Positions 41,321 to 55,627 of a DNA stretch of 64,000 nt are shown piece by piece. The first letter of the stretch is position 1. Each line of letters begins with the position of its first letter. Source of the stretch: Bacteroidales bacterium (GTDB lineage Bacteria > Bacteroidota > Bacteroidia > Bacteroidales > UBA10428); the NCBI GenBank assembly GCA_050295515.1, contig JBNKPU010000207.1, positions 1,358 through 65,357 of the forward strand, given 5' to 3'. Under the pieces are notes generated by a model. That model made no database searches and was not told the DNA's origin. It saw only the letters and a list, made by a program, of their open reading frames with translations. Position numbers and translations under genes: made by a program.

Positions 41321-41632
41321 CTAAAGGGCATCACATTTTACGTCACATTCGCTTGAATTACAAGTTCCAGACTCTGATGTTTTACAATGATAATAAGTAC
41401 CTTCCTCAGTAACAGTATAGACTCCAATACTATAACTTACAGAGCATTTATCTGATCCACAGGTTTTTCCAGATGGACCTTGCCCACTTTCCCCTGGGGC
41501 AGCCATTGCGTACTTCAATTCAAACAAAGAAGCAAAAGTATTATTACTTTTTTGACTTGAAACTTTATAGTTTATAGCTACAAGTGTAATCAGGCATATT
41601 GCAATGCCAATAATTTTCGTCATGTTTTTCAT
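41321..41632 (-). CDS. Cassette A: small secreted Cys-rich peptide precursor (NVEALA-like leader)
   Basis: 103 aa: N-terminal TM/signal, leader ..SLFELKYAMA|APGESG, then a six-Cys C-terminal region TCGSDKCSV...YYHCKTSESGTCNSSECDVKCDAL. Confidence 0.7.
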   Translation of the reverse strand: MKNMTKIIGIAICLITLVAINYKVSSQKSNNTFASLFELKYAMAAPGESGQGPSGKTCGSDKCSVSYSIGVYTVTEEGTYYHCKTSESGTCNSSECDVKCDAL

Positions 41633-41805
41633 AATAATTTTAATTTTTAATAATTTGAAATATGATTTAATACTTTAATTAACAGCTCCATATAAAGCGT
41701 GCAAAATCATTTTTAATTTTAATTTTTAATAAATACCTCCTTTCTAATTTTATAATAATTTCACATTAAAAAATGTAGATGATTTAGATAGATATATGGG
41801 ATCAA

Positions 41806-42021
41806 TCAACTATTCATAAAATCCTTAAAACTTTTCCGTGATATTACTTTTATTACAAACAACAATATTGATATAATAAGAAATGATGCTCCAATAATCA
41901 AAAGTAATTTTGAATCTGAATAGTGAATAATTTTTAAGGTTGCCCCTAATAGAAATATCAAAAAAGATATTAATCCTAAAATCACAATGTGTTTTACTTT
42001 CATTTTATTTTTATTAGACAT
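41806..42021 (-). CDS. Small two-TM membrane protein
   Basis: 71-aa ORF with two hydrophobic helices, flanked by period-7 repeats. Confidence 0.45.
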   Translation of the reverse strand: MSNKNKMKVKHIVILGLISFLIFLLGATLKIIHYSDSKLLLIIGASFLIISILLFVIKVISRKSFKDFMNS

Positions 42022-42057
42022 TTAAATATTTGTTACTTGAACTTTCATGTTTAGCAG

Positions 42058-42106
42058 AATTACCGCTAACTAATTGCTAACTACTAATTACTAATTGTTA
42101 ATTGTC
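42058..42106. repeat. Period-7 tandem repeat array (7 units)
   Basis: AATTACC GCTAACT AATTGCT AACTACT AATTACT AATTGTT AATTGTC. It overlaps the last codons (..TINN*) of the 122-aa ORF. Confidence 0.6.
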
Positions 42107-42459
42107 TTTCTAGCCGCTTTAAAACCAATTCCAACAAATATTAAAATCACTCCGAAGGTTAGGTACTCCCAACTCTCTCCGCGAATGCTTGTATAACTGG
42201 CTTTTTTAAAAAATATATAAAGAAGATTTCCAATAACAAATCCAATTCCGGTAAAAAAACACAACTTATTTAAAATACCGAGTAAATCAGTTATCTGAGG
42301 ATTTTTAGTTAGATTCTCCTTTTTAATGAATTTATCCCTGAAAAAATTCACAACCATAATAAATCCATAAATCAGGATAATTGCAAAGAAAATTTTAAGA
42401 AAAGTTTCTATGTAAATACTCCCTATGCCTGTACTTATATTAAAAGTTTGATTTTCCAT
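42091..42459 (-). CDS. Small polytopic membrane protein
   Basis: 122-aa ORF with about 4 hydrophobic helices. Its C-terminal codons are encoded by the heptamer array. Confidence 0.5.
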   Translation of the reverse strand: MENQTFNISTGIGSIYIETFLKIFFAIILIYGFIMVVNFFRDKFIKKENLTKNPQITDLLGILNKLCFFTGIGFVIGNLLYIFFKKASYTSIRGESWEYLTFGVILIFVGIGFKAARKTINN

Positions 42460-42468
42460 AGTTTGTTT

Positions 42469-42559
42469 TAATTATCGATGTTCAATGATCAATTACTAAC
42501 TACTAATTGCAAATTACTAATTACTCATCATTCATTATTAATTGTTAATTGTTAATTGT
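42469..42559. repeat. Period-7 tandem repeat array (13 units)
   Basis: Minus strand reads ACAATTA x3, ATAATGA ATGATGA GTAATTA GTAATTT GCAATTA GTAGTTA GTAATTG ATCATTG AACATCG ATAATTA. It fills most of the spacer between the adaptor gene and the 122-aa ORF. Confidence 0.7.
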
Positions 42560-43651
42560 TCATTTTAAAGTACTAAGCACACAAGGCACGTCATTTCCCA
42601 AATGAAGGTTACCTGAAACAATAACCGTATCCAAGTCTTTTAAACCTTCTGTTATTACAACATGAGTACTGTTTTCCTCCCCCGTTGTTACATAATTCCA
42701 TTTAGATACTTGTTCTTTCTGATTGTACGTAAAAACTACTTTCTTACCGGTTCGCAGCACAATTGCATCTTTCGGAATAGCAAGGCATTTTTTGGGTGAA
42801 GACCTAACATAAACTTTAACTGTAACCCCATCATAGAGGGCTGAAGCGCTAGAGTTCAATTCTGCACTTACCATAATCAAACCATTTTCAACTGTAGGAT
42901 TAATTGCGGTTATCGTTCCGTTCGCTTTTAGACTTTCATTGAAAAATGTGAATGCCTGAACTTTTAATCCCTTATTTACTAATACCGATTCTTCTTCCAG
43001 AATATAGAAATCCACTTTTAGCTTACTGTTGTCAATTATAGTGCAGATAAAACCATTATCGAGGTAATTCCCTTCCTTCACATTCATATTGGCAACGGCA
43101 CCATCTATTGGTGCTTTAATATATGCAGACTGGTACTTGTTTTGAGCAATAATAAAGTCAGTTTTTGCCAGTTCAATCCCACTTCTCATTCTGGCATTTT
43201 GTAATAACTCTTTTGGCATATCTGCTATGTTTTCATCCGAGTAACCCAATGCCACAAGTTTATCTGAGAAGTCAATTTTAGCCTTCTCATACAAGACTTT
43301 CTGTCTCAAATAAGAATGGTATAATTCAAGAGTGTCCAAAATTGCAATGATCTGACCGGCTTTCACTTCCTGGCCTGTATTGACATTTATTTTAAGAATA
43401 GTTTCACTAAGCCTGGACCTGACATCTACTTTTTTTACGGCCGTTACTTTACCGTTAGCAGACAATTCTTTCGAGAAATTATCTGACTTAAGAACTATTG
43501 CCTCCACTTCAGCTGCGGTAGTGATTTGTTCAACCTTATCCTCTCCGGTTTCATCATCAGCCGCTTTTGCTCCTTTGTTACATCCGTATACTACTGCCAG
43601 CAGTAAAAACGAAAACAGAATGCTTTTAATATTAAATTGATTACTATACAT
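42560..43651 (-). CDS. Efflux RND transporter periplasmic adaptor (membrane-fusion) subunit
   Basis: Lipobox AVVYGC and a biotinyl-lipoyl-like/HlyD_D23 pattern (VKAGQIIAILD ... IKAPIDGAVANMNVKEGNY). Confidence 0.85.
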   Translation of the reverse strand: MYSNQFNIKSILFSFLLLAVVYGCNKGAKAADDETGEDKVEQITTAAEVEAIVLKSDNFSKELSANGKVTAVKKVDVRSRLSETILKINVNTGQEVKAGQIIAILDTLELYHSYLRQKVLYEKAKIDFSDKLVALGYSDENIADMPKELLQNARMRSGIELAKTDFIIAQNKYQSAYIKAPIDGAVANMNVKEGNYLDNGFICTIIDNSKLKVDFYILEEESVLVNKGLKVQAFTFFNESLKANGTITAINPTVENGLIMVSAELNSSASALYDGVTVKVYVRSSPKKCLAIPKDAIVLRTGKKVVFTYNQKEQVSKWNYVTTGEENSTHVVITEGLKDLDTVIVSGNLHLGNDVPCVLSTLK

Positions 43652-43658
43652 TGCTCAT

Positions 43659-43742
43659 CGATTATTATTTACTCAATACTAATTGTACATTATTAATTAC
43701 ACATTACACATTGATAATTACTCATTACTAATTGTCAATTTC
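43659..43742. repeat. Period-7 tandem repeat array (12 units)
   Basis: CGATTAT TATTTAC TCAATAC TAATTGT ACATTAT TAATTAC ACATTAC ACATTGA TAATTAC TCATTAC TAATTGT CAATTTC. It overlaps the RND1 stop (..TISNE*). Confidence 0.7.
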
Positions 43743-46700
43743 TTCTTCACAAAAAACACAGGCAGCACAAACAATATCCCAATTATAGAAAACACTAGCC
43801 CGCTGCATGTAGCGACCGCCAGTGGAAACCAGAAATCTTCTTTTTCACCGGCCAGCAAATAGGGCAGCATACCAATTAAGGTCGATAGAATGGTTAAGAT
43901 AATAGGAACTATTTTAGCCCGGTAAGCTAAAAAGTAAGCCCGGTTTCCCTTCAATCCTTTCTTTTTAACATTATTCAGTTCATTGATAATATAAATGGCT
44001 GAGTTTACTGTTAGCCCACATAACAAGATCATGGCTGAATAACCTCCCTGGTCAAAACTTATTCCAAAGATACGGAAAGTCAGAAATACACCGATAAAGG
44101 TAACAGGAATCAGGGATATTACTGCCAGTGGTTGCCAGAGCGATTCAAACAATACAGCACTTACCATATAAATAATTAAAACAACAAAAAAAATCAAGGC
44201 AGTCTGCCTGTTCTTTTCTTTGCTACTTTGATAAACATATTGCCTGTTTTCAATCTTATATCCCATCGGCAATTGATTTTCATATTTTTCCATAAGCTCA
44301 TCCAGAACTAATTTTCCCAGCTGGTATGTTCCAATAAAGTCCCATTCGACAAAAACAATGTATTGTTGGTTTTGCCTATTTATAGAGGTAGAAGTTTTTT
44401 GTTTTGAAATATCTGCAATCGCATTGGGTTTAAACAAGGTTGTATTTGCCGGCAATACCGAATTTTCTAATTGCCAGTAATCGAAACTGCCAGCGGCACT
44501 GGAAGATATCACCAGGTTTTCAGAATTCCCGCCATTATTTATTGTACCAAGATAACGTTCTTCTGTAGTGATGAGGCTTAGGTAATTTGCCAGGTTCCTG
44601 TATGCGGTATTTTTAAAGGCTACCTTTTCCCGATCAGCCCTAAGAACATACTCCCAACTTTTATCCCGATAGTAACTGTCAGATCCCATGATATTAGCCT
44701 CCTTTATCCGAGGGTTTTTTAGTAAACCCTCCCTGAGTTCTTCCGCATATCGGTATACCTGCCCGTAATTATACCCTAATAATGCAACCTTATAATTACC
44801 AACTCTTTCCTGCATTGAATTATTAAATCCATCGCCTTGTCCATATATCCTGGCATCCAGGCTTGAAAAACCAATAGCTTTTGATATTAACTCATTCTGC
44901 AGAAAGAAAGGAAAAGAAGTAAATTCATGTTCCGGTTTAAAGGTTATAACCATGCGGGCATTATCTGTTCCATATATGCTTGATTCAAAACGGTCAATCT
45001 CCGAATATTGCTTCAGGTAATTCTCGATTTCGATAAATACCTCGTTCATCTGTTCAATAGTAGCGCCGTCTTCCATAGAAGCATGCATAACAACAGAGGT
45101 GCGTTGCCTTTCGTTGTAAAACCTGCCATGGTCTACTTTTTTAACGAAGGCACGAAGCGTACCCCCGGTGATTTTTTCAACGACAGGACCAATGGACCTT
45201 GTATAAACATCACTTCCCAGTGTCTTGTTGTACATGTGCCCCCAGAAATTATCTTTCTCGATTTTGTTCGGCAACAAAAAAAGCGGCAGACCAAAAGAGA
45301 AAACAAGTACAACAACCCAAATCCACCTGAAACGGATGAAGAAGCCAACAATACGGGGATAAATTTTATTTATGGGAAGTACGCGCTTTTTCCTCTTATA
45401 GTATTTGCCATTTATGGCTTTGGTATACACCGGTACTTTTTCGATAAGCGCAGGAATAAAGAACAGTGCGACAAACAATGAGACAGTAAGGTTTACGATT
45501 AAAACAACTGCAAAATCGAGCAGGTTAAGCTGAGCTCTTTGATCCAGAAAAAAGATAACTGACAGTGATGCAATTGTGGTCAATGTCGAGGCGAAAACCG
45601 CCATAAAGACTTTTCGATTCTTTTTGTGCCTTATATGATCGGTCATAACAATGCTGTTGTCGATTAGTAGCCCAAGCGACACAGTTATACCGGCAAAAGA
45701 GTACAGGTGCAATTGTACACCAAGCAAGTAATAGATAAAGAAATTGATAGCCAGATTGCACAGCAGGCTAAGCGAGATTACCAGCATATATCGCCAATTG
45801 AGGGATATTAAACCCGTAAACAGAAGCAAGAGCAACAGAGCTAAAACAGTCCTGCGGACTATCTTGCTAATTTCTCCAGAAATATATTCGGTATTATCAT
45901 GCATTAGTAGCATTCCGATGTTCTCAGGCAGGCTTTTTTCAATATCATCTGCCTTGTTCTTTACACGTTCGGCGAGTTTAACCTGGTTTTGTCCTTCTTC
46001 CGGATAAACCACAACAGTTATATTCTTCTTTCCGTTTAGCCGGTAATAACTCCTTGCTATTACCGGTTCCCTTTTAACAGTTGCAATATCCCCAAGATAA
46101 GTTATATGCCCTTCTTTACTGGTATGCACAGGCACCTTCAACAAATCGGTTGCCGATGCGCCGTTTAGTCCTTTAACAACTATTGTTTTTTGATTTTCAC
46201 CATTAACCGGGGCAAGCCCCAAAGGCAATTGTATCAACTCAAGCCTAACCGTGTTAAGCAATTCATTGTAGTTTATGCCAAGATTTAACAACTTGTTAAT
46301 ATCAACTGAAATATTCCATTGAAAAGGTGTAATTCCGTGCATTTGCACCTGCCCTACTCCTTTTATTTGTTGCAAGGGGTCAACAATGCTTTCTTCAATT
46401 AACTGGGACAATTCTTCATTTTTTTCATCTGCCATTACCATATATGTGAGAACTGGACGCTGATCGGAAGCTTGTCCACCTGCCCATACCCCGGGGTAGC
46501 TCACTCCATTGGGCAAGGACGGATATAGTGTGCTGATCATTTGGGATACTTGGTAGCTAACAAGGTTCACATCAGCTTCTTTATTTAGCTCAAGGTAAAT
46601 ATTGCCCCAACCGTTTCCTGAGGTGGAATTCACATTTTTGACCTCAACGATTAGCGACAATTGAGCTTCCAGCACCGAAGTAACCCTTTGTTCAATCCTT

Positions 46701-46861: not shown

Positions 46862-47044
46862 ATAAAATTGTACAATTGTATTTTAAAATACCTAGATTTC
46901 TTATGAAGCAGTTAGATTATTATTCGAACCCTTTTCAATGCCACAAGTCAAAGACTTGCTGCAGCTAGAGAGATGGTTGACATACATCAGACACATTTGC
47001 TTAAATCTGAAAAAAAAACATTCTAATGGTTTCCTGAGATGTAT

Positions 47045-47638
47045 TTACTCATTGTAATTTTTCTTCGCTAAGAAATTTTTATTTATATTAATAAAATATT
47101 TCACCGTTAATAAATTATTCTTTTTATCAGGGAAAAATAAACCATTAGTCCTCCGATTTTTATCTATAATAAAATAATACGGAATACCTAGCTCTTCTGC
47201 CTTATGAAAAAAAACATTATCAGTATTTATCATCAAGATTTCAGGTACAAGCCTTTTTTGATATGTTTTAAAATCACCCCGCCTTTCAAATGAGGCCAGA
47301 ACAATGACATTTGAAGATTTTGTGTTTTCAACAAATTGGTTAATTAGGTTTATCTCATTTCTTATGCATTCAGAGCATTGCTCCTCATTAATTCTCAATA
47401 TCAGCAACTGATCTTTTATTAAAAACTCTTCCAAATAACCTTTCTGATCATTATATTGGACATCAATATTTGGTATACTATCAGTCATGTATTTATAGCT
47501 TAGCCATAAATTGTTGACAGCATGTTCTACAAAAAAACTAGTATCATTGAACTTGCGATTAATCATATAAAACTTGTAAGTAAAAAATGTAGCAATGGCT
47601 ATGAGAACAATTATTATATGAGTTGATAAATTTTTCAT
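47045..47638 (-). CDS. Cassette B: membrane-anchored thioredoxin-fold CxxC protein
   Basis: TM anchor, LLILRINEEQCSECIRNE (CxxC), later GIPYYFIIDKN (cis-Pro-like region). Confidence 0.65.
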   Translation of the reverse strand: MKNLSTHIIIVLIAIATFFTYKFYMINRKFNDTSFFVEHAVNNLWLSYKYMTDSIPNIDVQYNDQKGYLEEFLIKDQLLILRINEEQCSECIRNEINLINQFVENTKSSNVIVLASFERRGDFKTYQKRLVPEILMINTDNVFFHKAEELGIPYYFIIDKNRRTNGLFFPDKKNNLLTVKYFININKNFLAKKNYNE

Positions 47639-47648
47639 TACTATCAGG

Positions 47649-48863
47649 TTAAAAATTTTTGAATTTATAAAAGAAAAGTACTGGATTATCTAAAGGTGAT
47701 ATGTTCTGGATTTTTTCGAGGCTTGAATTATTTGATAAAAAAACCTTAAAACTTTCTTCTGGAAGTATTTCTTTTAATTGTTCGAAATATTTATTTAAAT
47801 AAAGAGCACTTAACGAAGATATGAAATAGCCTTGGTGATTTCCAAGTATAAATTTATTCCAAGCAGGAAATATTATATCATCTTCAATTTCACCTTCTCC
47901 AATGATAAAGTGTTCACTCTTTTTGTCATAATAACAGTTTTTTAGACCATTTCCCAATGTAAATGAAATTGCAATCGTCGAGTCATTTTCATAAAAACCA
48001 TCAACTCCTAAAATGTAATTTTCATATTTATCTGGATTTTTGGGAACATCTTTAATTAACATGCTTGGGAGTAGATTATGTTCTCCAAAATCGAGAAAAT
48101 ATTTTTTTTCTATTTTGTTATTATCAACTGAATAAACATACTCATCATAAAAATCTAAATAATTTAAATTAGAACCTGATTTGAAAAATGCCTCAGTCTT
48201 CATAAGATTTGTTTCAAGATATTCTTTAGGAAAAGTTATGAATCTTCTAATAATACTTCCTTCTGAATCAGTATAAAATATCTTAATTCTTTTCTTGCCT
48301 TTATTCATTAAAGGATTATAATGATTGTTGAATATGTAAGTATTGCTATCAACATAACTTAAAAAATCAGCCCTGAAGTTATTTTCTAGTTTTTTTTCTG
48401 AGACTAATTCCCCTGTAAAATCATATGATATTAATGTGTGTTTAAATTGACTCATAATGACTATTGTATTGAGAGTCTTATTTATTGTAAAGTCTGCAAT
48501 TTGCCGGTACTCACCTGGACCTTTCCCTTCATTAAAGATTTTTAAGATAAATTTTCCTTTCTCCGAGAAAACAAAAATAGCATTACTATTTCTGTCTAGA
48601 ATGAAGATTTTATCTTCATAATAGCAAATTTTATTTATTTGGCTCAAATATTCTGTTGTATCCAGTTTAATACAGTAAAATTCTTTTATATAATCGGAAA
48701 TAATCTTATGAGAAGGATCCATATTTCCAATTTTTTCTAGTTCTATCCTTTTTACATTTGTATCATCCGATTCACTTATATAATTCTTGCTACAAGACAT
48801 CAAAATGAAGACTGGAACAATATAAACAATTAGGAGTTTTCCTGACTTGGTTAATTTTTTCAT
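47649..48863 (-). CDS. Cassette B: 6-bladed beta-propeller lipoprotein
   Basis: Lipobox ILMSC, GKGPGEY, KIFILDRNSNAIFVFSEKGKF, C-terminal DNPVLFF. Confidence 0.75.
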   Translation of the reverse strand: MKKLTKSGKLLIVYIVPVFILMSCSKNYISESDDTNVKRIELEKIGNMDPSHKIISDYIKEFYCIKLDTTEYLSQINKICYYEDKIFILDRNSNAIFVFSEKGKFILKIFNEGKGPGEYRQIADFTINKTLNTIVIMSQFKHTLISYDFTGELVSEKKLENNFRADFLSYVDSNTYIFNNHYNPLMNKGKKRIKIFYTDSEGSIIRRFITFPKEYLETNLMKTEAFFKSGSNLNYLDFYDEYVYSVDNNKIEKKYFLDFGEHNLLPSMLIKDVPKNPDKYENYILGVDGFYENDSTIAISFTLGNGLKNCYYDKKSEHFIIGEGEIEDDIIFPAWNKFILGNHQGYFISSLSALYLNKYFEQLKEILPEESFKVFLSNNSSLEKIQNISPLDNPVLFFYKFKNF

Positions 48864-48882
48864 TGTTTATTCAATGTTTTTA

Positions 48883-48976: not shown

Positions 48977-49004
48977 GCGCTATTCTAATTATTGTTGGTA
49001 CACA

Positions 49005-49487
49005 CTAGCAACTTGCACTAAAACATGATTCTGAAGAACCATCTCCACACTTTTGCACATATTGTGTAATTTCCTTTTTTTCAGAATACGTAACACCACC
49101 ACCAGTAGAACTTACATTTAAACCTACTGTACGTTCCTCTCGTGTAAGACATTTATAATCATAAGGGTAATAATCACCAGGTGTCCCGTAATCATCACCC
49201 CAGTAATCGCTGAAACCTGTTGCATCATAGCTTATAAAGTTGCCTGCTGCATCATAGGCATCGCTTAATGAGAAAGTAGATTGCCCTGAGTAATAATCCT
49301 CATCAAAATAGTATGTTATACCATTTTGCGTGAAAGTAATATAGCTTTTGCCTTCGGTTGATACTTGAGCAATAGCTTTCTTCGCTCGAAGATCTAAGGT
49401 TGAATTTTTGGAGTTAATATTTATAGATAGGTTAAAAGCCATAACTCCTACAACAGAATACAATAATACAAATTTAATAATTTTCAT
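49005..49487 (-). CDS. Cassette B: secreted Tyr/Asp/Gly-rich peptide precursor with Cys-containing C-terminus
   Basis: 160 aa: signal/TM, leader ..LDLRAKKAIA|QVSTEG, C-terminus ..YDYKCLTREE...QYVQKCGDGSSESCFSASC. Confidence 0.6.
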   Translation of the reverse strand: MKIIKFVLLYSVVGVMAFNLSININSKNSTLDLRAKKAIAQVSTEGKSYITFTQNGITYYFDEDYYSGQSTFSLSDAYDAAGNFISYDATGFSDYWGDDYGTPGDYYPYDYKCLTREERTVGLNVSSTGGGVTYSEKKEITQYVQKCGDGSSESCFSASC

Positions 49488-49570
49488 TTTTTAATAATTT
49501 AATGTTTGTTTAAATAATCTAGTAATCTAAATAAAAAGGATATAACCCCTTAATTTCTAACTATTTATTT

Positions 49571-50403
49571 ATCTTTGTCACCTCACCTCCTTTCTTCTTT
49601 GTCCGCCATAGCAATGCGACGGCGGAATGGGTTTAGGAGCCGGGCAGGACAAACCTGGTATCGCAAATACTCCTGAGTTTGTTCCTGCCTTTTTTGTCTC
49701 CATTTTTATAGTTGTTTAACTTTCTTGTGCATGTTAACTTTTGCAATAACATTACATAGCCATTTCTTAAACCTTGCGTTAAGGAAATAGTACAATCAAA
49801 TTGTTATGTTTAATATTCTTTATCCGAAAAGTCAATTAGAAAAACCAAAGCCTAAGTATACATGAATAAAAGAAGCATATTCATTTAATAAAATGTAGCA
49901 GGTGGCACAATAGTTCAAAAAAATGACAATTAACGGTTTATTTTACATTTAGGTTTGTATTTTCATTTTTGAGTTGGGTTTTAGATTTATTTATGGATTT
50001 ACTATTATTTAATAATTAACATGTTTTTATTGACTGCAATTTTATTTTTCACAAAACCAGGAAATTCAATCTCACAATTTTATTGTGCATACCTAAGCAA
50101 TAGCTTTCAGAATCTCCTATTGTACAATTTTAAAATAACATCTTGACTACACACCCCGAAGGTTATGTGGGTCAAATATAGAAAAAATCCGTTCTTTCGC
50201 AATTGTACCTGGGTAACAAAAAAAAGTATTTCCGTAACATTTCACCCTAAAACATGCTTATATAGCTTCATTATAATCGGTTTGCAGGTATCCATTTATG
50301 TTTATTCTACAATTTGATCAATATTTTATTTTCGTATCTAAATAATTCATAGCTCATATTTAGTTTATTATTCCTAAAGGTGTATGAGGGAATGTATATT
50401 AAA
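49571..50403. repeat. Long non-coding direct repeat, copy R1 (pairs with 55785-56631)
   Basis: By-eye alignment gives about 95 percent identity over the first roughly 430 nt and high identity over the last roughly 200 nt, with a diverged middle. No ORF of 60 aa or more. Confidence 0.85.
49583..49695 (+). ncRNA. Candidate small RNA or structured element inside R1
   Basis: A -7 box TATCTTTG (49570-49577) sits at the exact left edge of the repeat. The pyrimidine-rich 5' end is CACCTCCTTTCTTC. There is a hairpin TCCGCC/GGCGGA. A long hairpin GGCAGGACAAAC/GTTTGTTCCTGCC (49643-49689) is followed by T6. Confidence 0.35.
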
Positions 50404-50594
50404 TCCTCACCATCCAGAGGTAATACTTTTGGCTCTAACTCTAAAGATTTTATTTTAACCTTAGATCCTTCCAATTCTCGTTGTGATTTTTACTGGAACA
50501 ATTCATCAAGTAGTTTGTGAGATAATATTCCTATTAACAGTACTGTGACTAGAATAACTGTTGAATTTTGGATCCTGACTATTAAGATTATTTG

Positions 50595-50751
50595 CTCTAA
50601 TTAGTGTTTGTCAATAAAGTCCAACTACTGCGTTATTGCTCAAAATTTAAATCCTCATATACACAAGTATACTGCGATTTAAATTTTTCACACGCCTTGT
50701 ATTTGAACTTTATTCCTCAAACCCCCGACTTTATGGACAGACTCTAATTAG
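50595..50751. mobile_element. MITE-like element with 10-bp target-site duplication
   Basis: CTCTAATTAG occurs at 50595-50604 and 50742-50751. Terminal inverted repeats are TTTGTCAATAAAGTC (50607-50621) and the reverse complement of GACTTTATGGACAGA (50727-50741), matching 13 of 15. An internal 11-bp hairpin AAATTTAAATC/GATTTAAATTT is also present. Confidence 0.45.
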
Positions 50752-51063
50752 AGTTGTTAGATTATTAGGCATATCAGTTTTTTTGTTAAGCTCAAGGTAT
50801 ATATAGCCACAACCGTTTCCGGAGGTGGATTTCACATTTTCAACCTCATTGATTAGCGACAATTGTGCTTCCAGCACCGAAGTAACCCTTTGTTCAATCA
50901 TTGCCGGTGATGCCCCTGAATAGCCAAAAGAAACCCTAATACTCGAATTGCTATACGATGGGTATAGCTGCAAAGGTATCTTGAAAACCAATGCCAAACC
51001 AGCAAGCGAGAGCATGGTGAAGATGGTGATTATGGTGAAGCTATTTGAGGTTTTTCGGGGCAT
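50731..51063 (-). pseudogene. Truncated duplicate of the RND1 5' end
   Basis: MPRKTSNSFTIITIFTMLSLAGLALVFKIPLQLYPSY... aligns with RND1 residues 1 to about 97. By-eye nucleotide identity is roughly 85-90 percent. Homology stops near 50770, followed by unrelated sequence and a stop. Confidence 0.8.
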
Positions 51064-51179
51064 GAAGTATTGGATGCATTGTTTGATTGTTTTTTTTCTA
51101 AAATGAGCTATATATATTCTTTAATACTCAATTAAATTGTTATAAGAATCGTTTAGTTTCTATAGACTATGTTAAAAAG

Positions 51180-51629
51180 TCATAAATTTGTGGCTGTTGG
51201 TATAGCATATTCCAGCATCTCCTTTATGCTACATTTAATAAACAAGTTGTTATATTCTCTTTCCGTATTTGATCTGATGCTTATAACTTTTCGTTGAAAC
51301 CCTAGTTCTTTATCTTTTGTGTTAAAATCTATTGATAACTTTGTTGAGTCCCCTGGCAAGACTATATTAGTGTCAAGCATGAATCCAGTACAGCTACATT
51401 CAGGAGACACTTCCTTTATAATTAATTTTTCGCGTCCAAGGTTTTTAACGAAAAATATTGCATGAACCAAAGTATCATTTGAAATTGTACCAAAATCAAT
51501 TACTTTCTTTGAAAACCCTATTTGAGTTTGCACATTATCTACCTTTTCATTAGATATCTCATGTTTATTTTTAATATTACAACTATAAACATAAAAAGCA
51601 ATTAAAAAAATCCAATATTTTTTTTTCAT
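51180..51629 (-). CDS. Cassette C: DUF1573-like lipoprotein
   Basis: Lipobox YVYSC. FGTISNDT...FFVKNLGREKLIIKEVSPECSCTG...LPGDS matches the DUF1573 pattern. It has a 4-nt overlap with propeller C. Confidence 0.75.
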   Translation of the reverse strand: MKKKYWIFLIAFYVYSCNIKNKHEISNEKVDNVQTQIGFSKKVIDFGTISNDTLVHAIFFVKNLGREKLIIKEVSPECSCTGFMLDTNIVLPGDSTKLSIDFNTKDKELGFQRKVISIRSNTEREYNNLFIKCSIKEMLEYAIPTATNL

Positions 51630-52831
51630 ATTAGCTCATCTTTTAATTTCATAAGTATAATTATTGGATTATCTTCTGGAGTAATTGTACCTAGCCCTTC
51701 AACTATTTTATATTTTTCGCCAGGACTATACATAAACTCATTAGCAGGTATAATAATATTTATCAGATAATTTTCATGCCAGATTTCATGATATATATTA
51801 CTGCTTCTTGTACTAAAGGTCACATAGGCTGGAAAATCGGATATGTCATTTTCTATCATCCTGGCATGAAATGTTTGATTCTTTTCTTTTAAAACTATAT
51901 ACTCTGCTGGATATCTATTGTCTTTGCTTTCAAAAAAGTTATATGTTATAGCCAAAATTTTTGTGTTATTTATTGTCAGCACAGGTAAAAAAGCTTTACC
52001 CTCAGCCTTTTCATTAAGATAAGCCATTTGCTCTTTAATTGATTGCTTCCCTATAGAGTTGTCTATCCCATAACCCCCAAAATCTACAGAAAACACTGGA
52101 AAAGCTGTTAAATCCTGTATCTGATAAAAATTATTGTCATACATTATCGAAACGAACAGTTCATTCTTGTCATTGATTGTTAAATTCTCTTTAATAGCAG
52201 AAAATGAAAGATTATTATTATCGATTTTTTTATCAAACAAGGTTTTCTTTACTTTGTTGTTTCTAACTATAACAAGGCCAGCATTAGTCTTCTTTCCATT
52301 AATAATATTCTGGTTTTGTTGTGTGGCAAAATAATATGTGTTATTGATTTTTCTTGAAGAATTAGAAAATACAGGATCCATATCATTTTTATCAATAAGG
52401 TTAAAGGATAAGTTCGAATATTTTATAAATTTTCCTCTCCTGGTAAATACTTCAATAAATTCTTCATTATCATCAATAAAAACTCCAGCGAAATTTAAAT
52501 ATTCATCAGGACCCTTGCCTCTTTTATCTAATTTCGAAACATAATTTCCCTGTTTATCAAATACAAAAACCACCATCTGACTTACATCACACGCGTATAT
52601 ATATTTATTTTTAATTATTAATTTTGCAATCCTGCCCATCACACAATTTGAATCTGTTTGCAGTCTAATGTATTTTACAGAATCAACAAACTCAGACAGC
52701 TTAACCTTTTCTTGTGCTTCTATTGGATTAATTTCTAAAATATTTAAACTGCTATTTGTTTTGTTTTCAGCATTGCATCCTGATATCAGTAGTCCAATAA
52801 ACAAAAAACCAATAATTATCTTCATATCCAT
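51626..52831 (-). CDS. Cassette C: 6-bladed beta-propeller lipoprotein
   Basis: Lipobox LLISGC, GKGPDEY, VVFVFDKQGNY, C-terminal DNPIIIL. Confidence 0.75.
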   Translation of the reverse strand: MDMKIIIGFLFIGLLISGCNAENKTNSSLNILEINPIEAQEKVKLSEFVDSVKYIRLQTDSNCVMGRIAKLIIKNKYIYACDVSQMVVFVFDKQGNYVSKLDKRGKGPDEYLNFAGVFIDDNEEFIEVFTRRGKFIKYSNLSFNLIDKNDMDPVFSNSSRKINNTYYFATQQNQNIINGKKTNAGLVIVRNNKVKKTLFDKKIDNNNLSFSAIKENLTINDKNELFVSIMYDNNFYQIQDLTAFPVFSVDFGGYGIDNSIGKQSIKEQMAYLNEKAEGKAFLPVLTINNTKILAITYNFFESKDNRYPAEYIVLKEKNQTFHARMIENDISDFPAYVTFSTRSSNIYHEIWHENYLINIIIPANEFMYSPGEKYKIVEGLGTITPEDNPIIILMKLKDELI

Positions 52832-52928
52832 AATTGTAATTTTAGTTTTAATTGTCTTTGCTCAGAAGGAGCAAAAACGTGATTTAGTTTAGTTCGTAAT
52901 TGCATCAAAAAATTTCTTATTAAAAGAT

Positions 52929-52953
52929 AGGTGCTCTATTAAAACGAGCACCT
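52929..52953 (-). terminator. Hairpin with U-rich tail after peptide C
   Basis: Minus strand reads AGGTGCTC-GTTTTAATA-GAGCACCT followed by ATCTTTTAAT, 9 nt after the stop at 52962. Confidence 0.5.
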
Positions 52954-52961
52954 GTCATTAT

Positions 52962-53234
52962 TTATTCACATGTACATCCCCAATCATTACATACTGGGGT
53001 GGTTTCACCATCGCAGAATGTTGCTGTGCAATCAACTCTTTGCTTATATTCCCATTTACCAGTATTCGGATTATAAACATATTCAGTTATATACTTTGAA
53101 CACGAATTACAACTTGAACCTTCTGACTGTGCAAAAGCTATTGTTTGATTTGCATCATTTGTGAAAACTTGAACATTAACAAATAATACAGTAAGGACTG
53201 CAAGTGAACTTATACTTATTAAAATTTTCGTATC
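52962..53234 (-). pseudogene. Cassette C: Cys-rich peptide gene lacking a canonical start codon
   Basis: Own translation: (PDT)KILISISSLAVLTVLFVNVQVFTNDANQTIAFA|QSEGSSCNSCSKYITEYVYNPNTGKWEYKQRVDCTATFCDGETTPVCNDWGCTCE*. There is no ATG/GTG/TTG between the in-frame TGA (53235-53237) and the hydrophobic segment. It is absent from the ORF track. Confidence 0.45.
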
Positions 53235-53453
53235 AGGTCAGTTTAGGTCAACAAATAGAGCTTTCAGATTTGCCGTATTAAGATCTGTCGCAGATACGGT
53301 GTTGAAAAATGACATGAATGTTCTAAACTCGTTGAAAATTATTGCTGGCTTGCAAACTGATCTGCAACCATTTTTTTAATTATAGTGCGCATTCTAAGAT
53401 AAGTATGAATTACTGTACGTCTAATAATTTCTCAGCGCTAATGCTAATAAAAC

Positions 53454-54098
53454 CTAATTATAAAAATCATCCTTATTTCGTGAATATAACTTAGAAATTG
53501 ATCTTAGATATTTTTGAGTTAAGTTACTGTCAATCTCATTTGTTTGAAACAAGAAATGAATACTAAAATCTTTATCCAACATCATAAGGTAATTCTGATA
53601 CATTTCTAAATCCGGTATATTCAGTGAAGTACAATAAGATTTAACACCTATTAATCTTTCATAGACACCTATTTCAGCTTTTCTCTTACTATCTATCAAT
53701 ACAACCATGCCTGTCTCGGAGATTCTATCATTTTCTTTTCTCAAAAGTAACATAAGATCATCAATACAGGTTCTACATGAAATACCAGATGAATAGAGCA
53801 CTAGCAATGGTAAATCATTTTTTAGATCAGCCAAATCCCGTTTATTGTTATCTTTATCAAATAGAGTAGCTGTACTATCTAAATAATACTTATCGTATTT
53901 TATAAAATCAAACAGCCTATTTTCCATCTGGCTTATTATTTCTTCTTTTTCTTTCAGTAAACTTATCTGATTAATATTTTGTTGAGTTCGCTGATACTTT
54001 TCCTTAAAATACAAAAAAAGCAAATTACAGCACAGGAGGAAAAAGAATAAAAAAATAAAAATTACAACCCCCTTCTTTTTTAACACTGAATTATTCAT
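53454..54098 (-). CDS. Cassette D: membrane-anchored thioredoxin-fold CxxC protein
   Basis: TM anchor; LPLLVLYSSGISCRTCIDDL (CxxC). Confidence 0.65.
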   Translation of the reverse strand: MNNSVLKKKGVVIFIFLFFFLLCCNLLFLYFKEKYQRTQQNINQISLLKEKEEIISQMENRLFDFIKYDKYYLDSTATLFDKDNNKRDLADLKNDLPLLVLYSSGISCRTCIDDLMLLLRKENDRISETGMVVLIDSKRKAEIGVYERLIGVKSYCTSLNIPDLEMYQNYLMMLDKDFSIHFLFQTNEIDSNLTQKYLRSISKLYSRNKDDFYN

Positions 54099-54100
54099 AC

Positions 54101-55252
54101 CTATAACCCGTTTAATTCATATATTAGCAAAATTGGATTGGAATTAATATTAACCTTTATTTTCTCAAGAGCTTCAAATGTTTGTTTTGATATCATTCCA
54201 TCAGCATAAAGACTGCCTAACTCCTTTAAATAAAATGGCTCCAGGATGCAAACAAATTTGTTGTTGTTTGTGCAATTTATTTGTGTAAATGGGTTCATTC
54301 CCCCACATACAAATCCGCCGGTTTTTTTTGAAAAAAACAATTGTTTTATTTCCCCTTTTTGAATAAAGGTAAAATAGTAGTAATCTTTAGTCTCATGGAA
54401 ATTGTCAATCCCAACAGCGTAGTCACTATTCATATTATAGTCATGAATTTGTAAGGCAACCTCTTTACTAAAACCTTTGTCAATCTGGGCATCGTCGAGG
54501 GTGTTGCCCCCAAAATCGATGTGTACGTTCTCAAATAGAGAATCGTTTGCAATCTTGTAAATTGTATACGAACCAAAAGTTGGCCTTAGGTTAATGCCAT
54601 TATAACATGAATTAAACTGTTTACCTTCATAGATTATTCTTTTCAGGGGCAGATATTTATTCTCCAGCATTTTTCCTTTAGAAGACATTGTATAGATTAA
54701 AAAAGGCATTGATTTTTCATTTCTTTGCACACCAAAAGATCCTTGCCACAAATAAAACACACTACTGTTGAAACTTGCCATTTGTAGTGGGTTTAAAAAC
54801 TCGTCCTTATTTTTAATTTTAACAGATTTAACAAACCTTCCATTTAAAGTATACATAAGAATACGTTGATAAGACAACAAACATATAAGACTGTCTTCTG
54901 TTACTGAAAAATCCCTTAGCTCAATGAATTCACCTTCTCCCCGTCCCTTTGCACCTATCCGTTGAATAAAATTGCCTTCCGGTCCAAATACCAAAAGCGA
55001 ATGAGTCTGTAGGTCCTGAATAAAATATCTGTTAAACTTAAACATAGCTTTTTTTACCGAACCAATTAATAACAGTTCACTAGTCTCCAATTGTTTGACA
55101 TCAATTATGTTTAATTTTTCTTTTAAATCATTATTTGCCCCCCTTGATAAATCAATTTTTATTACTTTCTCCGATTTCTTAATTGATGATTGATTGCTTT
55201 GTGAACAAGAAGCAAAACTAATGACAATAGCCACAATAACTAAATTTCTCAT
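54101..55252 (-). CDS. Cassette D: 6-bladed beta-propeller lipoprotein
   Basis: Lipobox ISFASC, GRGEGEF variant of the GPGEY motif, LLVFGPEGNF, C-terminal SNPILLI. Confidence 0.75.
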   Translation of the reverse strand: MRNLVIVAIVISFASCSQSNQSSIKKSEKVIKIDLSRGANNDLKEKLNIIDVKQLETSELLLIGSVKKAMFKFNRYFIQDLQTHSLLVFGPEGNFIQRIGAKGRGEGEFIELRDFSVTEDSLICLLSYQRILMYTLNGRFVKSVKIKNKDEFLNPLQMASFNSSVFYLWQGSFGVQRNEKSMPFLIYTMSSKGKMLENKYLPLKRIIYEGKQFNSCYNGINLRPTFGSYTIYKIANDSLFENVHIDFGGNTLDDAQIDKGFSKEVALQIHDYNMNSDYAVGIDNFHETKDYYYFTFIQKGEIKQLFFSKKTGGFVCGGMNPFTQINCTNNNKFVCILEPFYLKELGSLYADGMISKQTFEALEKIKVNINSNPILLIYELNGL

Positions 55253-55266
55253 TTATTTTATCTTTA

Positions 55267-55298
55267 AAAGCCTAAAAAGGAGAACCTTTTTAGGCTTT
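55267..55298 (-). promoter_or_regulatory. Strong hairpin between peptide D and propeller D
   Basis: Perfect 14-bp stem AAAGCCTAAAAAGG / CCTTTTTAGGCTTT with a 4-nt loop, 21 nt after the peptide D stop. Confidence 0.55.
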
Positions 55299-55318
55299 AT
55301 TGTTTTTTTTAATTTCAA

Positions 55319-55627
55319 TCAATAACAAGTACCTGGAACGCAGTCTGTGTCAACACATGTAGTCCCTTCGTTTAGATAACAAGCTATATATAAACCCGGG
55401 ATGTATTTATGCTGGTAAGGGTGCCAAAAAGCACAATTCTGACAACTTCCCCCCCTTGGAGTATCTCCATTCTCATTTTGAGCTAGTGCCAATTTAAATA
55501 AGCTATGAAGATTAGTGTCTTGGTCACTTGTATTCATATTGTTAAATGCCAATCCAATAGCTACATTAACAAATAAAGCTAGTGCTAAGGCAGCAAAAAA
55601 TGTTCTTTTCTTGTTATTCTGTTTCAT
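55319..55627 (-). CDS. Cassette D: small secreted Cys-rich peptide precursor (NVEALA-like leader)
   Basis: 102 aa: TM/signal, leader ..NLHSLFKLALA|QNENGD, six-Cys region SCQNCAFWHPYQHKYIPGLYIACYLNEGTTCVDTDCVPGTCY. Confidence 0.7.
   Translation of the reverse strand: MKQNNKKRTFFAALALALFVNVAIGLAFNNMNTSDQDTNLHSLFKLALAQNENGDTPRGGSCQNCAFWHPYQHKYIPGLYIACYLNEGTTCVDTDCVPGTCY

What the first reader, a model, noticed from the sequence alone, without database searches (positions are those of the whole stretch)
41321..55627. Shared extended leader ending in an AxA motif about 20-25 residues after the hydrophobic segment
All four peptides have a hydrophobic N-terminal segment and a polar spacer. The spacer ends in a conserved small-x-small motif, followed by an acidic/Gly stretch:
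- A: FASLFELKYAMA | APGESGQG
- B: LDLRAKKAIA | QVSTEGKS
- C: NDANQTIAFA | QSEGSSC
- D: NLHSLFKLALA | QNENGDT

This resembles the NVEALA signature as I recall it, and fits the -3/-1 AxA rule of signal peptidase I. However, it lies much further from the hydrophobic core than a standard Sec cleavage site. That suggests a two-part leader or a dedicated processing step. A signal peptidase I gene (31267-32271) is encoded in the same transcriptional direction within the efflux operon. The mature regions are unrelated in sequence but all contain Cys (6, 4, 7 and 6 Cys), as expected for a diversifying effector behind a conserved leader.
Basis: partly seen in the sequence, partly recalled or inferred. 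Interest (0 to 1): 0.7.

Follow-up and report, generated by a model that had tools for sequence, protein, structure and literature searches.

The report
NVEALA-like peptide cassettes with linked signal peptidase
The four small cysteine-rich peptides are diverged members of the uncharacterised Bacteroidota "NVEALA" peptide system, whose long leader ends in an Ala-x-Ala site and whose gene clusters repeatedly carry their own extra signal peptidase I, a disulfide oxidoreductase and an efflux pump, so a dedicated cleavage step is likely but not yet shown.

Summary
Four minus-strand ORFs encode peptides with a 12-16-residue hydrophobic segment, always followed by Asn. A 16-29-residue spacer ends in A-x-A, followed by an acidic/Gly stretch and a Cys-rich region (6, 4, 7, 6 Cys). 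One of them, pepC, has no start codon.

Each peptide heads a cassette: peptide, DUF5128/NHL six-bladed propeller lipoprotein, then a membrane-anchored ResA-like CxxC protein. Pfam's NVEALA model does not hit the peptides. A profile-profile comparison does link their leaders to canonical NVEALA leaders (95% probability, 49 columns). Canonical NVEALA genes from metagenomes sit in the same cassette.

The signal peptidase idea gains real support:
- The window's S26 belongs to a short subfamily distinct from the long Bacteroidota LepB.
- Three of four relatives examined lie next to such cassettes.
- S26 genes occur in 21 of 88 canonical NVEALA loci.
- Gln is enriched exactly at +1 of the ALA site, as expected for Bacteroidota signal peptidase I sites.

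Two points do not hold. The cores are not unrelated, because all four share C-x7-C-x4-C. In orthologues the core is better conserved than the leader.

Cleavage at the distal site is inferred, not shown. A conventional proximal site remains a live rival.

The parts
41321..41632 (-). pepA precursor (103 aa): signal-like N-terminus, Asn21, spacer helix, AMA|APGE (site after codon at 41501-41503), six-Cys core
   Evidence: orthologues; AF2 model
40010..41311 (-). DUF5128/NHL six-bladed beta-propeller lipoprotein 1, cognate of pepA
   Evidence: PF17170 E 1e-52; PDB 4RAA and NHL repeats; homologues always follow type-A peptides
39386..40000 (-). Membrane-anchored ResA/TlpA-like CxxC oxidoreductase 1
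   Evidence: Invariant CxxC; family profile hits ResA 4nmu at E 1.1e-5
49005..49487 (-). pepB precursor (160 aa): AIA|QVSTE, four-Cys core ending in C-x7-C-x4-C
47649..48863 (-). DUF5128 propeller lipoprotein 2
   Evidence: PF17170 E 1.8e-43
47045..47638 (-). CxxC oxidoreductase 2
52962..53237 (-). pepC (reading frame without a start codon; ACG at 53229-53231): AFA|QSE, seven-Cys core
51626..52831 (-). DUF5128 propeller lipoprotein 3
   Evidence: PF17170 E 6.2e-35
51180..51629 (-). DUF1573 protein, which takes the place of the CxxC gene in cassette 3. DUF1573 is a recurrent partner and is fused to the thioredoxin-like domain in gut loci.
   Evidence: PF07610 E 4.2e-20
55319..55627 (-). pepD precursor (102 aa): ALA|QNE, six-Cys core; no sequence relative found
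54101..55252 (-). DUF5128 propeller lipoprotein 4
   Evidence: PF17170 E 7.3e-25
53454..54098 (-). CxxC oxidoreductase 4
31267..32271 (-). Accessory-type signal peptidase I (S26, 334 aa), the candidate leader peptidase
   Evidence: PF10502; Ser/Lys boxes aligned to E. coli LepB; short subfamily; contexts
32309..34213 (-). Wzy_C/O-antigen-ligase-like membrane protein with TPR repeats, directly upstream of S26
   Evidence: orthologous to the Chitinophaga locus gene (31% identity, E 4e-68); recurs
34217..38747 (-). RND pump (35688-38747) and outer-membrane factor (34217-35701), the candidate export route
   Evidence: same arrangement in L012, L014, L135, L053 and L099
42560..46861 (-). Second RND pump (43718-46861) and membrane-fusion protein (42560-43651), upstream of cassette 1
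   Evidence: synteny with L012 and L135
41295..41309 (-). Terminator-like stem-loop between pepA and its propeller gene. Similar stem-loops follow pepD (55267-55298) and pepC.

Best explanation
The four ORFs are precursors of small secreted, disulfide-rich proteins. They belong to a diverged branch of the Bacteroidota NVEALA peptide system.

Shown here:
- Each precursor is encoded directly upstream of its own NHL/DUF5128 six-bladed propeller lipoprotein and a membrane-anchored ResA-like CxxC oxidoreductase.
- The cluster also carries an extra signal peptidase I of a short subfamily, a Wzy_C/TPR membrane protein and RND/MFP/OMF pump genes.
- This gene set recurs from Marinilabiliales-like genomes to Chitinophagales and gut Bacteroidales.

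Inferred mechanism:
1. The lysine-rich N-terminus and the short hydrophobic segment of about 13 residues take the precursor through Sec.
2. The invariant Asn and the spacer of about 20 residues, with its short L-x-x-L helix, hold the Cys-rich domain near the membrane.
3. The CxxC protein forms its disulfides.
4. The operon-encoded S26 peptidase cuts after A-x-A, just before a flexible acidic/Gly linker, and releases the folded core. The new N-terminus is often Gln, which can cyclise to pyroglutamate.
5. The tripartite pump or an outer-membrane barrel exports the core.
6. The cognate propeller acts as a specific binding partner, either as an immunity factor or as a chaperone.
For: Cassette anatomy.

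The same cassette occurs in relatives reached through the propeller.

Link to canonical NVEALA:
- PF14055 peptides sit in [peptide-DUF5128]n plus a CxxC gene.
- hhalign of 20 window-type leaders against 69 NVEALA leaders gives 95.4% probability, E 1.9e-8, over 49 collinear columns, Asn to Asn and AxA to ALA. Controls with other signal peptides reach 10-64% over at most 17 columns.

The S26 enzyme:
- The catalytic Ser and Lys boxes are intact.
- It belongs to a distinct short subfamily of 290-368 aa, against the mass of 445-552 aa LepB proteins.
- Relatives at 37-58% identity lie in a peptide-propeller-CxxC-S26 operon (L013), or in cassette-RND-S26-OEP clusters (L014, L135), or in a syntenic RND-OEP-Wzy-S26 cluster (L012).
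- S26 genes occur in 21 of 88 canonical NVEALA loci (589 kb) and in 18 of 47 loci of at least 6 kb. In L053 and L099 the order is NVEALA-propeller-S26-...-Wzy_C-MFP-RND-OEP.

Site features:
- Position -1 is Ala in 19 of 27 type-A representatives and -3 is Ala in 14 of 26.
- No Pro occurs at +1 in 69 NVEALA peptides.
- Gln occurs at +1 in 10 of 69 against a 2.6% background (P about 1e-5), and at 0 of 69 at +2 and +3. Gln is at +1 in 3 of the 4 window peptides. This matches the Bacteroidetes Q-rule for signal peptidase I sites (PMC5837995).
- The AF2 model puts a short helix at 36-43 ending at the site, then a disordered stretch at 44-54, then a confident core.

The CxxC family profile hits ResA.
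Against: - No experiment or proteomic N-terminus was available, so cleavage at the distal site is inferred.
- By general knowledge of signal peptidase I, a site 16-29 residues past the hydrophobic segment is outside the usual 3-7-residue c-region.
- pepA has a textbook proximal site, VSS|Q. Canonical NVEALA leaders have a semi-conserved [SA]-Q about 5 residues after the Asn.
- The conserved Glu at +3 (54 of 69 NVEALA peptides; 19 of 25 type-A) is not a known signal peptidase I determinant. It could point to another protease or to a docking motif.
- In the family register, pepA has Pro at +1, so its site must be shifted by one residue.
- S26 genes near canonical NVEALA loci are not the closest relatives of the window's S26, so the linkage is not one clean clade.
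- Only 2 of 7 loci reached through the propeller show an S26 within the flank.
Confidence: 0.5

Rival explanations
1. The precursor has an ordinary Sec signal peptide plus an uncleaved docking or pro-region. The housekeeping LepB cuts a few residues after the hydrophobic segment. The L-x-x-L...A-x-A-x-x-E stretch stays on the exported protein as a recognition helix for the propeller, the CxxC protein or the pump. The cluster S26 serves other substrates.
For: - pepA has VSS|QKS six residues after the Asn.
- Several relatives have VFAS|, KLSA|R or FVSA|D at that distance.
- Canonical NVEALA leaders carry a semi-conserved [SA]-Q about 5 residues after the Asn; Gln is the commonest residue there (26 of 69).
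- Conservation spans both sides of the distal site, with Glu at +3.
Against: - The proximal NVEALA site has Tyr at -3, which is unfavourable for signal peptidase I by general knowledge.
- pepB, pepC and pepD lack a good proximal site with Gln, yet have Gln right after the distal A-x-A.
- Gln enrichment is specific to +1 of the distal site.
- This reading does not explain why an extra S26 gene travels with the cassettes.
Confidence: 0.25
2. The N-terminus is an uncleaved signal anchor. The Cys-rich domain stays tethered to the inner membrane and forms a stable two-subunit complex with its propeller. This would resemble the small Cys-rich light chain and beta-propeller heavy chain of methylamine dehydrogenase, which also needs the thioredoxin-like MauD. 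It would not be a released peptide.
For: - Peptide and propeller genes pair strictly one to one, and core type tracks propeller clade.
- A thioredoxin-like partner is present.
- The analogy itself rests on established knowledge of the mau cluster, not on a test made here.
Against: - A hydrophobic segment of 12-16 residues, mostly 13, is short for a stable anchor.
- The small-x-Ala site, the Gln at +1 and the linked S26 and efflux genes argue for release.
- The propellers have lipoprotein signal sequences of their own.
Confidence: 0.1
3. The leader is removed at or near A-x-A-x-x-E by a different protease. Candidates are the unannotated protein that follows S26 in gut loci, or a periplasmic housekeeping protease. 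In this reading S26 is linked for another reason.
For: - The conserved Glu at +3 is unusual for signal peptidase I.
- A conserved protein of unknown function occurs in 29 of 88 NVEALA loci, usually next to S26.
Against: - That protein is absent from the window and from the four-gene operon of L013, where S26 is the only protease-like gene.
- It has no protease family match.
Confidence: 0.1
4. The A-x-A is a chance feature of four unrelated small ORFs.
For: Small-x-small tripeptides are frequent, and the four leaders are only 16-23% identical overall.
Against: - HMM rankings within the window.
- The motif recurs in 27 type-A representatives and in NVEALA peptides.
- The shared Asn, spacing, Cys motif and gene context.
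Confidence: 0.03

Closest known systems
Pfam PF14055 'NVEALA protein' family with neighbouring DUF5128 (PF17170) propellers. Both are catalogued, but no paper mentioning either was found in the library searched.
   Same: - Lys-rich N-terminus, short hydrophobic segment, Asn, spacer of about 22 residues with an L-x-L helix, then A-x-A, x-x-Glu and a variable Cys-rich tail.
- The gene directly downstream is a DUF5128 propeller lipoprotein.
- A thioredoxin-like CxxC protein, S26, Wzy_C and RND genes lie nearby.
   Different: - The literal NVEALA motif is absent, and the Pfam model does not score the window peptides.
- The window leaders are much more diverged from each other.
- The cores are longer (53-120 aa against a median of 43) and share a C-x7-C-x4-C framework that is rare in canonical members (3 of 69).
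SipW of Bacillus subtilis, a dedicated signal peptidase I encoded in the tapA-sipW-tasA operon with its substrates (PMC10269814)
   Same: An extra S26 peptidase is encoded in the same operon as secreted proteins whose cleavage site is unsuited to the housekeeping enzyme.
   Different: - SipW is of the ER/archaeal type; the window enzyme has the bacterial Ser-Lys boxes.
- By general knowledge, the TasA site is at a normal distance from the hydrophobic core. Here the site is 16-29 residues away.
- Substrate dependence is not demonstrated here.
Sublancin-type and other disulfide-containing bacteriocin operons with dedicated thiol-disulfide oxidoreductases (BdbA/BdbB); established knowledge
   Same: A small Cys-rich secreted peptide is encoded together with its own thioredoxin-like oxidoreductase, export genes and, in some relatives, glycosyltransferases.
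   Different: - Those peptides use double-glycine leaders and ABC/C39 transporters. Here there is a Sec-type N-terminus, an A-x-A site, S26 and RND pumps.
- No antibacterial activity is known for this system.
Bacteroidetes Q-rule for signal peptidase I substrates (PMC5837995, PMC10653852)
   Same: Gln follows the putative scissile bond in 3 of 4 window peptides and is specifically enriched at +1 in NVEALA peptides.
   Different: - Only 14% of canonical NVEALA sites have Gln at +1, whereas the rule covers most ordinary substrates.
- The site is far from the hydrophobic segment.

Membership tests
Pfam PF14055 NVEALA | Match to the family HMM above the gathering score (27 bits) | tested here: not met
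   No hit at E <= 0.1 for the four peptides. No hit at E <= 10 for 18 window-type peptides. Canonical peptides of L046 score 39-61 bits.
Pfam PF14055 NVEALA | Literal N-V-E-A-L-A motif | tested here: not met
   The window has KYAMA, KAIA, IAFA and KLALA instead. The DNA pattern for ANVEALA is absent from the 11 loci held at that point, L001-L011.
Pfam PF14055 NVEALA | Leader architecture: Lys-rich start, short hydrophobic run, Asn, spacer of about 22 residues, A-x-A, then x-x-Glu and a Cys-rich tail | tested here: met
   Hydrophobic run followed by Asn in 20 of 20 window-type peptides. Spacer is 12-29 residues (mode 23), against 18-25 (mode 23) in NVEALA peptides. Glu is at +3 in pepC and pepD, +4 in pepA and +5 in pepB.
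Pfam PF14055 NVEALA | Detectable homology of the leader by profile-profile comparison | tested here: met
   hhalign gives 95.4% probability, E 1.9e-8, 49 columns for the 20-sequence profile, against controls of 10-64%. The four window peptides alone give only 80% over 19 columns, so the evidence is weaker for them individually.
Pfam PF14055 NVEALA | Genomic context: directly upstream of a DUF5128-type propeller lipoprotein | tested here: met
   All four window peptides meet this. So do canonical peptides: 42 of 84 scorable have a recognised propeller within 400 bp downstream.
Signal peptidase I substrate (Sec/SPI cleavage site) | Small or aliphatic residue at -3, Ala/Gly/Ser at -1, no Pro at +1 | tested here: met
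   The sites are AMA|A, AIA|Q, AFA|Q and ALA|Q. The type-A family has Ala at -1 in 19 of 27 representatives. No Pro at +1 in 69 NVEALA peptides.
Signal peptidase I substrate (Sec/SPI cleavage site) | Site within a c-region of about 3-7 residues after the hydrophobic core (established knowledge) | tested here: not met
   The distance is 24, 22, 16 and 29 residues.
Signal peptidase I substrate (Sec/SPI cleavage site) | Actual cleavage at this bond | not testable with these tools
   Only DNA metagenome runs hold the window. No proteomic data were available.
Peptidase S26 (signal peptidase I), for the gene at 31267-32271 | Family HMM match and catalytic Ser (SxSM box) and Lys (KR..G.PGD box) | tested here: met
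   PF10502 E 4.3e-36. SASM and YVKRCIGLPGD align to E. coli LepB boxes, as does GDN..S.DSRFWG.
Dedicated (accessory) signal peptidase, SipW-like role | Encoded with its presumed substrates across taxa | tested here: met
   Seen in the window, L003, L007, L013, L014 and L135. S26 is present in 21 of 88 NVEALA loci.
Dedicated (accessory) signal peptidase, SipW-like role | A separate housekeeping LepB in the same genome | not testable with these tools
   Only 64 kb of this genome is available. The indirect evidence is that the window enzyme belongs to a short subfamily, separate from the 445-552 aa LepB proteins that dominate Bacteroidota.
Double-glycine-leader bacteriocins (class II / PCAT-exported) | GG/GA cleavage motif and a C39 peptidase-ABC transporter in the cluster | tested here: not met
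   There is no GG motif at the boundary. The cluster genes are RND, MFP, OMF and S26.
ResA/TlpA-like extracytoplasmic thiol-disulfide oxidoreductases (the ~200-aa genes) | Thioredoxin-like domain with an invariant CxxC and an N-terminal membrane anchor | tested here: met
   The two Cys are the only invariant columns in 17 sequences. The profile hits ResA 4nmu at E 1.1e-5 over the whole domain. The AF2 model was of low confidence (pLDDT 61).

The most novel reading that the evidence does not exclude
NVEALA-type cassettes, including this diverged branch, may form a phylum-wide Bacteroidota pathway that has not been described. In it, an accessory signal peptidase I cuts a distal site of a two-part leader. 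This releases disulfide-rich mini-proteins with a fold that has no solved relative. A ResA-like partner oxidises them, tripartite efflux pumps export them, and cognate NHL propeller lipoproteins match them as immunity or carrier proteins. In short, this would be a new class of Sec-dependent secreted peptide toxins or signals that is abundant in gut Bacteroidales.
Probability: 0.3. Interest if true: 0.8.

Novelty: new variant of a known kind. Interest (0 to 1): 0.62.

Why it matters
NVEALA and DUF5128 genes are catalogued domain families that turned up repeatedly, often in several copies per contig, in the human-gut metagenome contigs scanned here (81-locus arrays). No paper in the searched library mentions either family.

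This work shows three things:
- The family reaches well beyond what the Pfam model detects.
- It always comes as a peptide-propeller-oxidoreductase cassette.
- It repeatedly carries its own signal peptidase I and efflux pump.

That gives a concrete hypothesis for the function of the whole system that can be tested by knockout. It also offers a possible natural case of signal peptidase I acting far from the hydrophobic core. If the peptides prove to be antagonistic or signalling molecules, this would matter for gut-microbiome ecology.

Tried and rejected
- Pfam and NCBIfam scans of the peptides found no family.
- A word-indexed homologue search with pepD found only itself.
With a single propeller it found one genome locus.
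- The 894-aa protein downstream of S26 is not related to the OMP_b-brl_3 barrels or to the protein that follows S26 in gut loci, so it was dropped from the system.
- The AF2 model of the CxxC protein from three sequences was too poor to use (pLDDT 61). It was replaced by a 17-sequence profile search against the PDB.
- Foldseek of the pepA model against the PDB gave nothing below E = 2.
- Rfam found nothing in the duplicated upstream regions.
- No RNA runs hold the locus, so expression and 5' ends could not be checked.
- A double-glycine/PCAT system was considered and rejected because there is no GG motif, C39 peptidase or ABC transporter.
- A single monophyletic 'NVEALA-S26' clade was considered and rejected. 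The gut-locus S26 proteins are as far from the window's S26 as ordinary LepB proteins are.

Full report
**Observation.** Three lie in ordinary ORFs: 41321-41632, 49005-49487 and 55319-55627. The fourth, peptide C (52962-53237), has no ATG, GTG or TTG. It follows an in-frame TGA and reads ...P-D-T(ACG)-K-I-L-I-S..., where its paralogue pepB reads M-K-I-I-K. The simplest reading is an ATG-to-ACG start loss. After the A-x-A the peptides carry 6, 4, 7 and 6 Cys, as reported. Each has an uncharged hydrophobic run of 12-16 residues that is followed by Asn. The last Ala of A-x-A lies 24, 22, 16 and 29 residues beyond that run.

**Local anatomy.** Each peptide gene heads a co-directional cassette.
- A lipoprotein of about 400 aa follows within 10-140 bp. 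It matches DUF5128 (PF17170, six-bladed propeller; E from 1e-52 to 7e-25) and has a lipobox Cys. It also matches PDB 4RAA and NHL repeats.
- In cassettes 1, 2 and 4 the next gene encodes a protein of about 200 aa with an N-terminal membrane helix and an invariant CxxC. A 17-sequence profile of this family hits the ResA thiol-disulfide oxidoreductases over the whole thioredoxin-like domain (4nmu, E 1.1e-5).
- Cassette 3 carries a DUF1573 gene in that position and is followed by a 5' fragment of an RND gene.
- Cassette 1 sits between an RND/MFP pair and an operon with overlaps or gaps of a few bases. The operon order is RND, outer-membrane factor, Wzy_C/TPR protein, S26 signal peptidase.
- Stem-loops lie between pepA, pepC and pepD and their propeller genes.

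**Relatives reached through the propeller.** Propeller 1 has 53 homologues, all matching PF17170. In loci from Flavivirga, two Chitinophaga, Sphingobacterium, a Sunxiuqinia MAG and metagenomes, the gene is again preceded by one to four small peptide genes. It is again followed by a CxxC protein of 200-220 aa. Further neighbours recur:
- Wzy_C/TPR proteins. The Chitinophaga one is 31% identical to the window's over 541 residues (E 4e-68).
- Other GT-C and GT2 glycosyltransferases, a second propeller and an OMP_b-brl_3 barrel.
- RND pumps and LytTR regulators.
- An S26 peptidase in two of the seven distinct loci (L003 and L007).
A more distant propeller (L010) has a 75-aa peptide with ...NSAKA|FEGG, a CxxC protein and MacB-type permeases.

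**The NVEALA link.** Pfam's NVEALA model does not hit any of 18 window-type peptides, even at E <= 10. To obtain real NVEALA sequences I scanned metagenome contigs for DNA encoding LANVEALA. This gave 88 loci with genuine peptides of 60-125 aa.
- In L046, four peptides score 39-61 bits on PF14055. Each precedes a DUF5128 or TolB-like propeller, and a 206-aa CxxC protein follows one of them.
- The canonical leader reads MKK, hydrophobic run, N-V-Y-x-S-Q, spacer, S-D-L-A-L-A-N-V-E-A-L-A, then x-x-E. The leader is mostly 42-44 residues long.
- The spacer from the hydrophobic run to the final Ala is 18-25 residues, with a mode of 23.
- hhalign of 20 window-type leaders against 69 canonical leaders gives 95.4% probability and E 1.9e-8. 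It covers 49 collinear columns that put Asn on Asn and A-x-A on A-L-A, with a one-residue offset for pepA.
- The N-termini of propellers, CxxC, DUF1573 and other secreted proteins from the same loci give 10-64% over at most 17 columns. The four window peptides alone give 80% over 19 columns.
I conclude that the window peptides are a diverged branch of the same superfamily. They are not members of the Pfam family as it is modelled.

**The signal peptidase.**
- The window enzyme (334 aa) has the SxSM Ser box, the K-R-x-x-G-x-P-G-D Lys box and the GDN...S-x-DSR-x-WG box, all aligned to E. coli LepB.
- Its homologues split in two. About 25 proteins of 290-368 aa score 225-534 bits (37-68% identity). 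After them comes the mass of Bacteroidota LepB proteins of 445-552 aa at 205-220 bits.
- I looked up four members of the short group. L013 is a four-gene run: 119-aa peptide, DUF5128, CxxC, S26. L014 and L135 read propeller, CxxC, MFP, RND, RND, S26, OEP. L012 is syntenic with the window from RND through Wzy_C/TPR to S26, but shows no cassette within the 10-kb flank.
- Independently, S26 genes of 285-306 aa occur in 21 of the 88 canonical NVEALA loci, which total 589 kb. They occur in 18 of the 47 loci of at least 6 kb. The typical order is NVEALA, propeller(s), thioredoxin-DUF1573, S26, unknown protein, Wzy_C, MFP, RND, OEP.
- As a rough estimate of mine, a gene present once or twice per genome of several megabases would be expected well under once in 589 kb.
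- The gut S26 proteins form their own group. They are no closer to the window's enzyme than ordinary LepB proteins are. The linkage is therefore recurrent but does not define one clade.
- A B. fragilis expression study lists lepB BF9343_2903 two genes from an RND adaptor, with both genes induced together (PMC11402942).

**Is A-x-A a cleavage site?** Evidence in favour:
- In 27 representatives of the pepA family, the aligned columns are Ala at -3 (14 of 26) and Ala at -1 (19 of 27). Asp, Ser, Gln or Glu occupies +1, and Glu occupies +3 (19 of 25). Upstream there is L-x-x-L.
- No Pro occurs at +1 in 69 NVEALA peptides.
- Gln occurs at +1 in 10 of 69, against 2.6% in the cores (binomial P about 1e-5). 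It occurs in none at +2 or +3. Three of the four window peptides and four Sunxiuqinia or metagenome relatives also have Gln at +1. Bacteroidetes signal peptidase I sites characteristically expose Gln (PMC5837995).
- An AF2 model of pepA places a short helix at 36-43 that ends at the site. A disordered stretch follows at 44-54, then a confident core with pLDDT above 90.

Evidence against:
- The distance from the hydrophobic run is far beyond the usual c-region (general knowledge).
- The conserved Glu at +3 is not a signal peptidase I determinant.
- pepA has an excellent proximal site, VSS|Q.
- Canonical leaders have a semi-conserved [SA]-Q five residues after the Asn, although with Tyr at -3.
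- In the family register pepA would have Pro at +1, so its site must be AMA|A.
The distal cut is therefore a well-motivated inference and not a result.

**The cores.** They are not unrelated.
- C-x7-C-x4-C occurs in exactly four of the 281 window reading frames of at least 50 aa, and those four are the peptides.
- pepA has C-x4-C-x19-C-x7-C-x4-C-x3-C and pepD has C-x2-C-x17-C-x7-C-x4-C-x4-C, so they share one six-Cys framework. pepC has the same framework with one extra Cys. pepB keeps only the C-terminal part.
- An exhaustive search with pepA finds 28 cluster representatives among 1.84 billion proteins. They share six invariant Cys, an invariant Gly, and Y-x-H-C and C-D-A motifs.
- In orthologues the core is the best-conserved region. 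What varies is the acidic/Gly/Ser/Thr linker after A-x-A-x-x-E.
- Among canonical NVEALA paralogues the reverse holds. Column entropy is mostly 1.3-3.1 bits (up to 3.4) in the leader upstream of the pattern-fixed motif. It is 3.3-4.0 bits from +4 onward. Positions -8 to -1 were fixed by the search pattern and do not count.
- The pepA core model has no PDB neighbour (best E 2.0).

**Model and rivals.** The best-supported reading is a Sec-dependent precursor with a two-part leader.
- A short signal-like segment ends in Asn, and a spacer helix ends in A-x-A.
- The Cys-rich domain is oxidised by the cassette's ResA-like protein.
- The cluster's accessory S26 then releases it, and the tripartite pump exports it.
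- The cognate propeller acts as a specific binder. The one-to-one pairing, the tracking of core type by propeller clade, and arrays of propellers without peptides in L009 and L081 would suit an immunity or carrier role. That role is speculation.

The rivals are:
- a conventional proximal cut, with the motif retained as a docking helix;
- an uncleaved membrane tether that forms a methylamine-dehydrogenase-like complex with the propeller;
- a different protease.

**Novelty.** The domain families are catalogued, but I found no paper that mentions NVEALA, DUF5128 or PF17170. The window adds a diverged branch that the family model misses. The comparative work adds the recurrent S26, oxidoreductase, Wzy_C and efflux components.

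**Limits.**
- The organism is known only as a Bacteroidota-like contig of about 33% GC. Its nearest propeller relative in the genome collection is in a Sunxiuqinia MAG at 37% identity.
- The rest of the genome, and hence a second lepB, could not be examined.
- No RNA or protein data exist for the locus.
- The canonical NVEALA sample was selected by an exact motif.

Noticed in passing
window 52962-53240: pepC has ACG (53229-53231) where its paralogues have ATG, and an in-frame TGA just upstream. This is likely a start-loss pseudogene. Its cassette also lacks the CxxC gene.
   Followed up: partly
window 50731-51063 vs 46568-46867: A 110-codon 5' fragment of an RND gene, 85% identical to the start of the intact RND gene. 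It is a duplication scar downstream of cassette 3.
   Followed up: partly
window 49569-50406 and 55783-56634: A segment of about 0.85-1.1 kb without convincing ORFs is duplicated (82-96% identity) upstream of pepB and pepD. It contains two GC-rich hairpins (49575-49690; folding z-score -3.3) and has no Rfam match. It may be a shared regulatory leader or a small RNA.
   Followed up: partly
window 42058-42564 and 43653-43740: Clusters of AT-rich short repeats of the type AATTACTAATTG lie in the intergenic regions on both sides of the MFP gene.
   Followed up: no
window 41295-41309, 55267-55298, about 52915-52945: Stem-loops lie between the pepA, pepD and pepC genes and their propeller genes. The one after pepA has a T-run, and the one after pepD is a perfect 14-bp stem. 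They may act as attenuators that set the peptide:propeller transcript ratio.
   Followed up: partly
window 38873-39181; L012 2680-3036; L135 6158-6328: A '23S rRNA intervening sequence protein' gene keeps the same position in front of the RND-OEP operon in three loci.
   Followed up: no
L001 2106-2438, 7381-7746, 14195-14599: Three Sunxiuqinia peptides share a near-identical leader up to ELVA|Q. This is followed by (Thr-Gly)n/(Thr-Glu)n linkers and three different cores. GT2 and PMT-like GT-C genes flank each cassette, which suggests O-glycosylation of the linker.
   Followed up: no
L066 3592-4476 and other gut NVEALA loci: In gut loci the thioredoxin-like domain (weak AhpC/TSA match) is fused to a DUF1573 domain in one protein of about 295 aa. 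In the window and in Sunxiuqinia the two are separate genes.
   Followed up: partly
L009 (whole locus), L081 153-7365: Arrays of eight to ten DUF5128 propeller paralogues. No peptide was seen in the half of L009 examined (12-21 kb). In L081 no NVEALA motif lies within the array. They resemble orphan-immunity gene arrays.
   Followed up: no
L053 4941-6806, L012 11041-13059, and 29 of 88 NVEALA loci: A conserved protein of unknown function, with a C-terminal F5/8 type C domain in L053, usually follows the S26 gene in gut loci. It is absent from the window.
   Followed up: partly
window 18610-27109: A methyl-accepting chemotaxis protein, an ankyrin-repeat protein and a leucine-rich-repeat protein are encoded just downstream of the cluster.
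   Followed up: no
window 41806-42459: Two small multi-pass membrane proteins (71 and 122 aa, no family match) lie between the MFP gene and pepA. L012 has a 69-aa gene in the same place.
   Followed up: no
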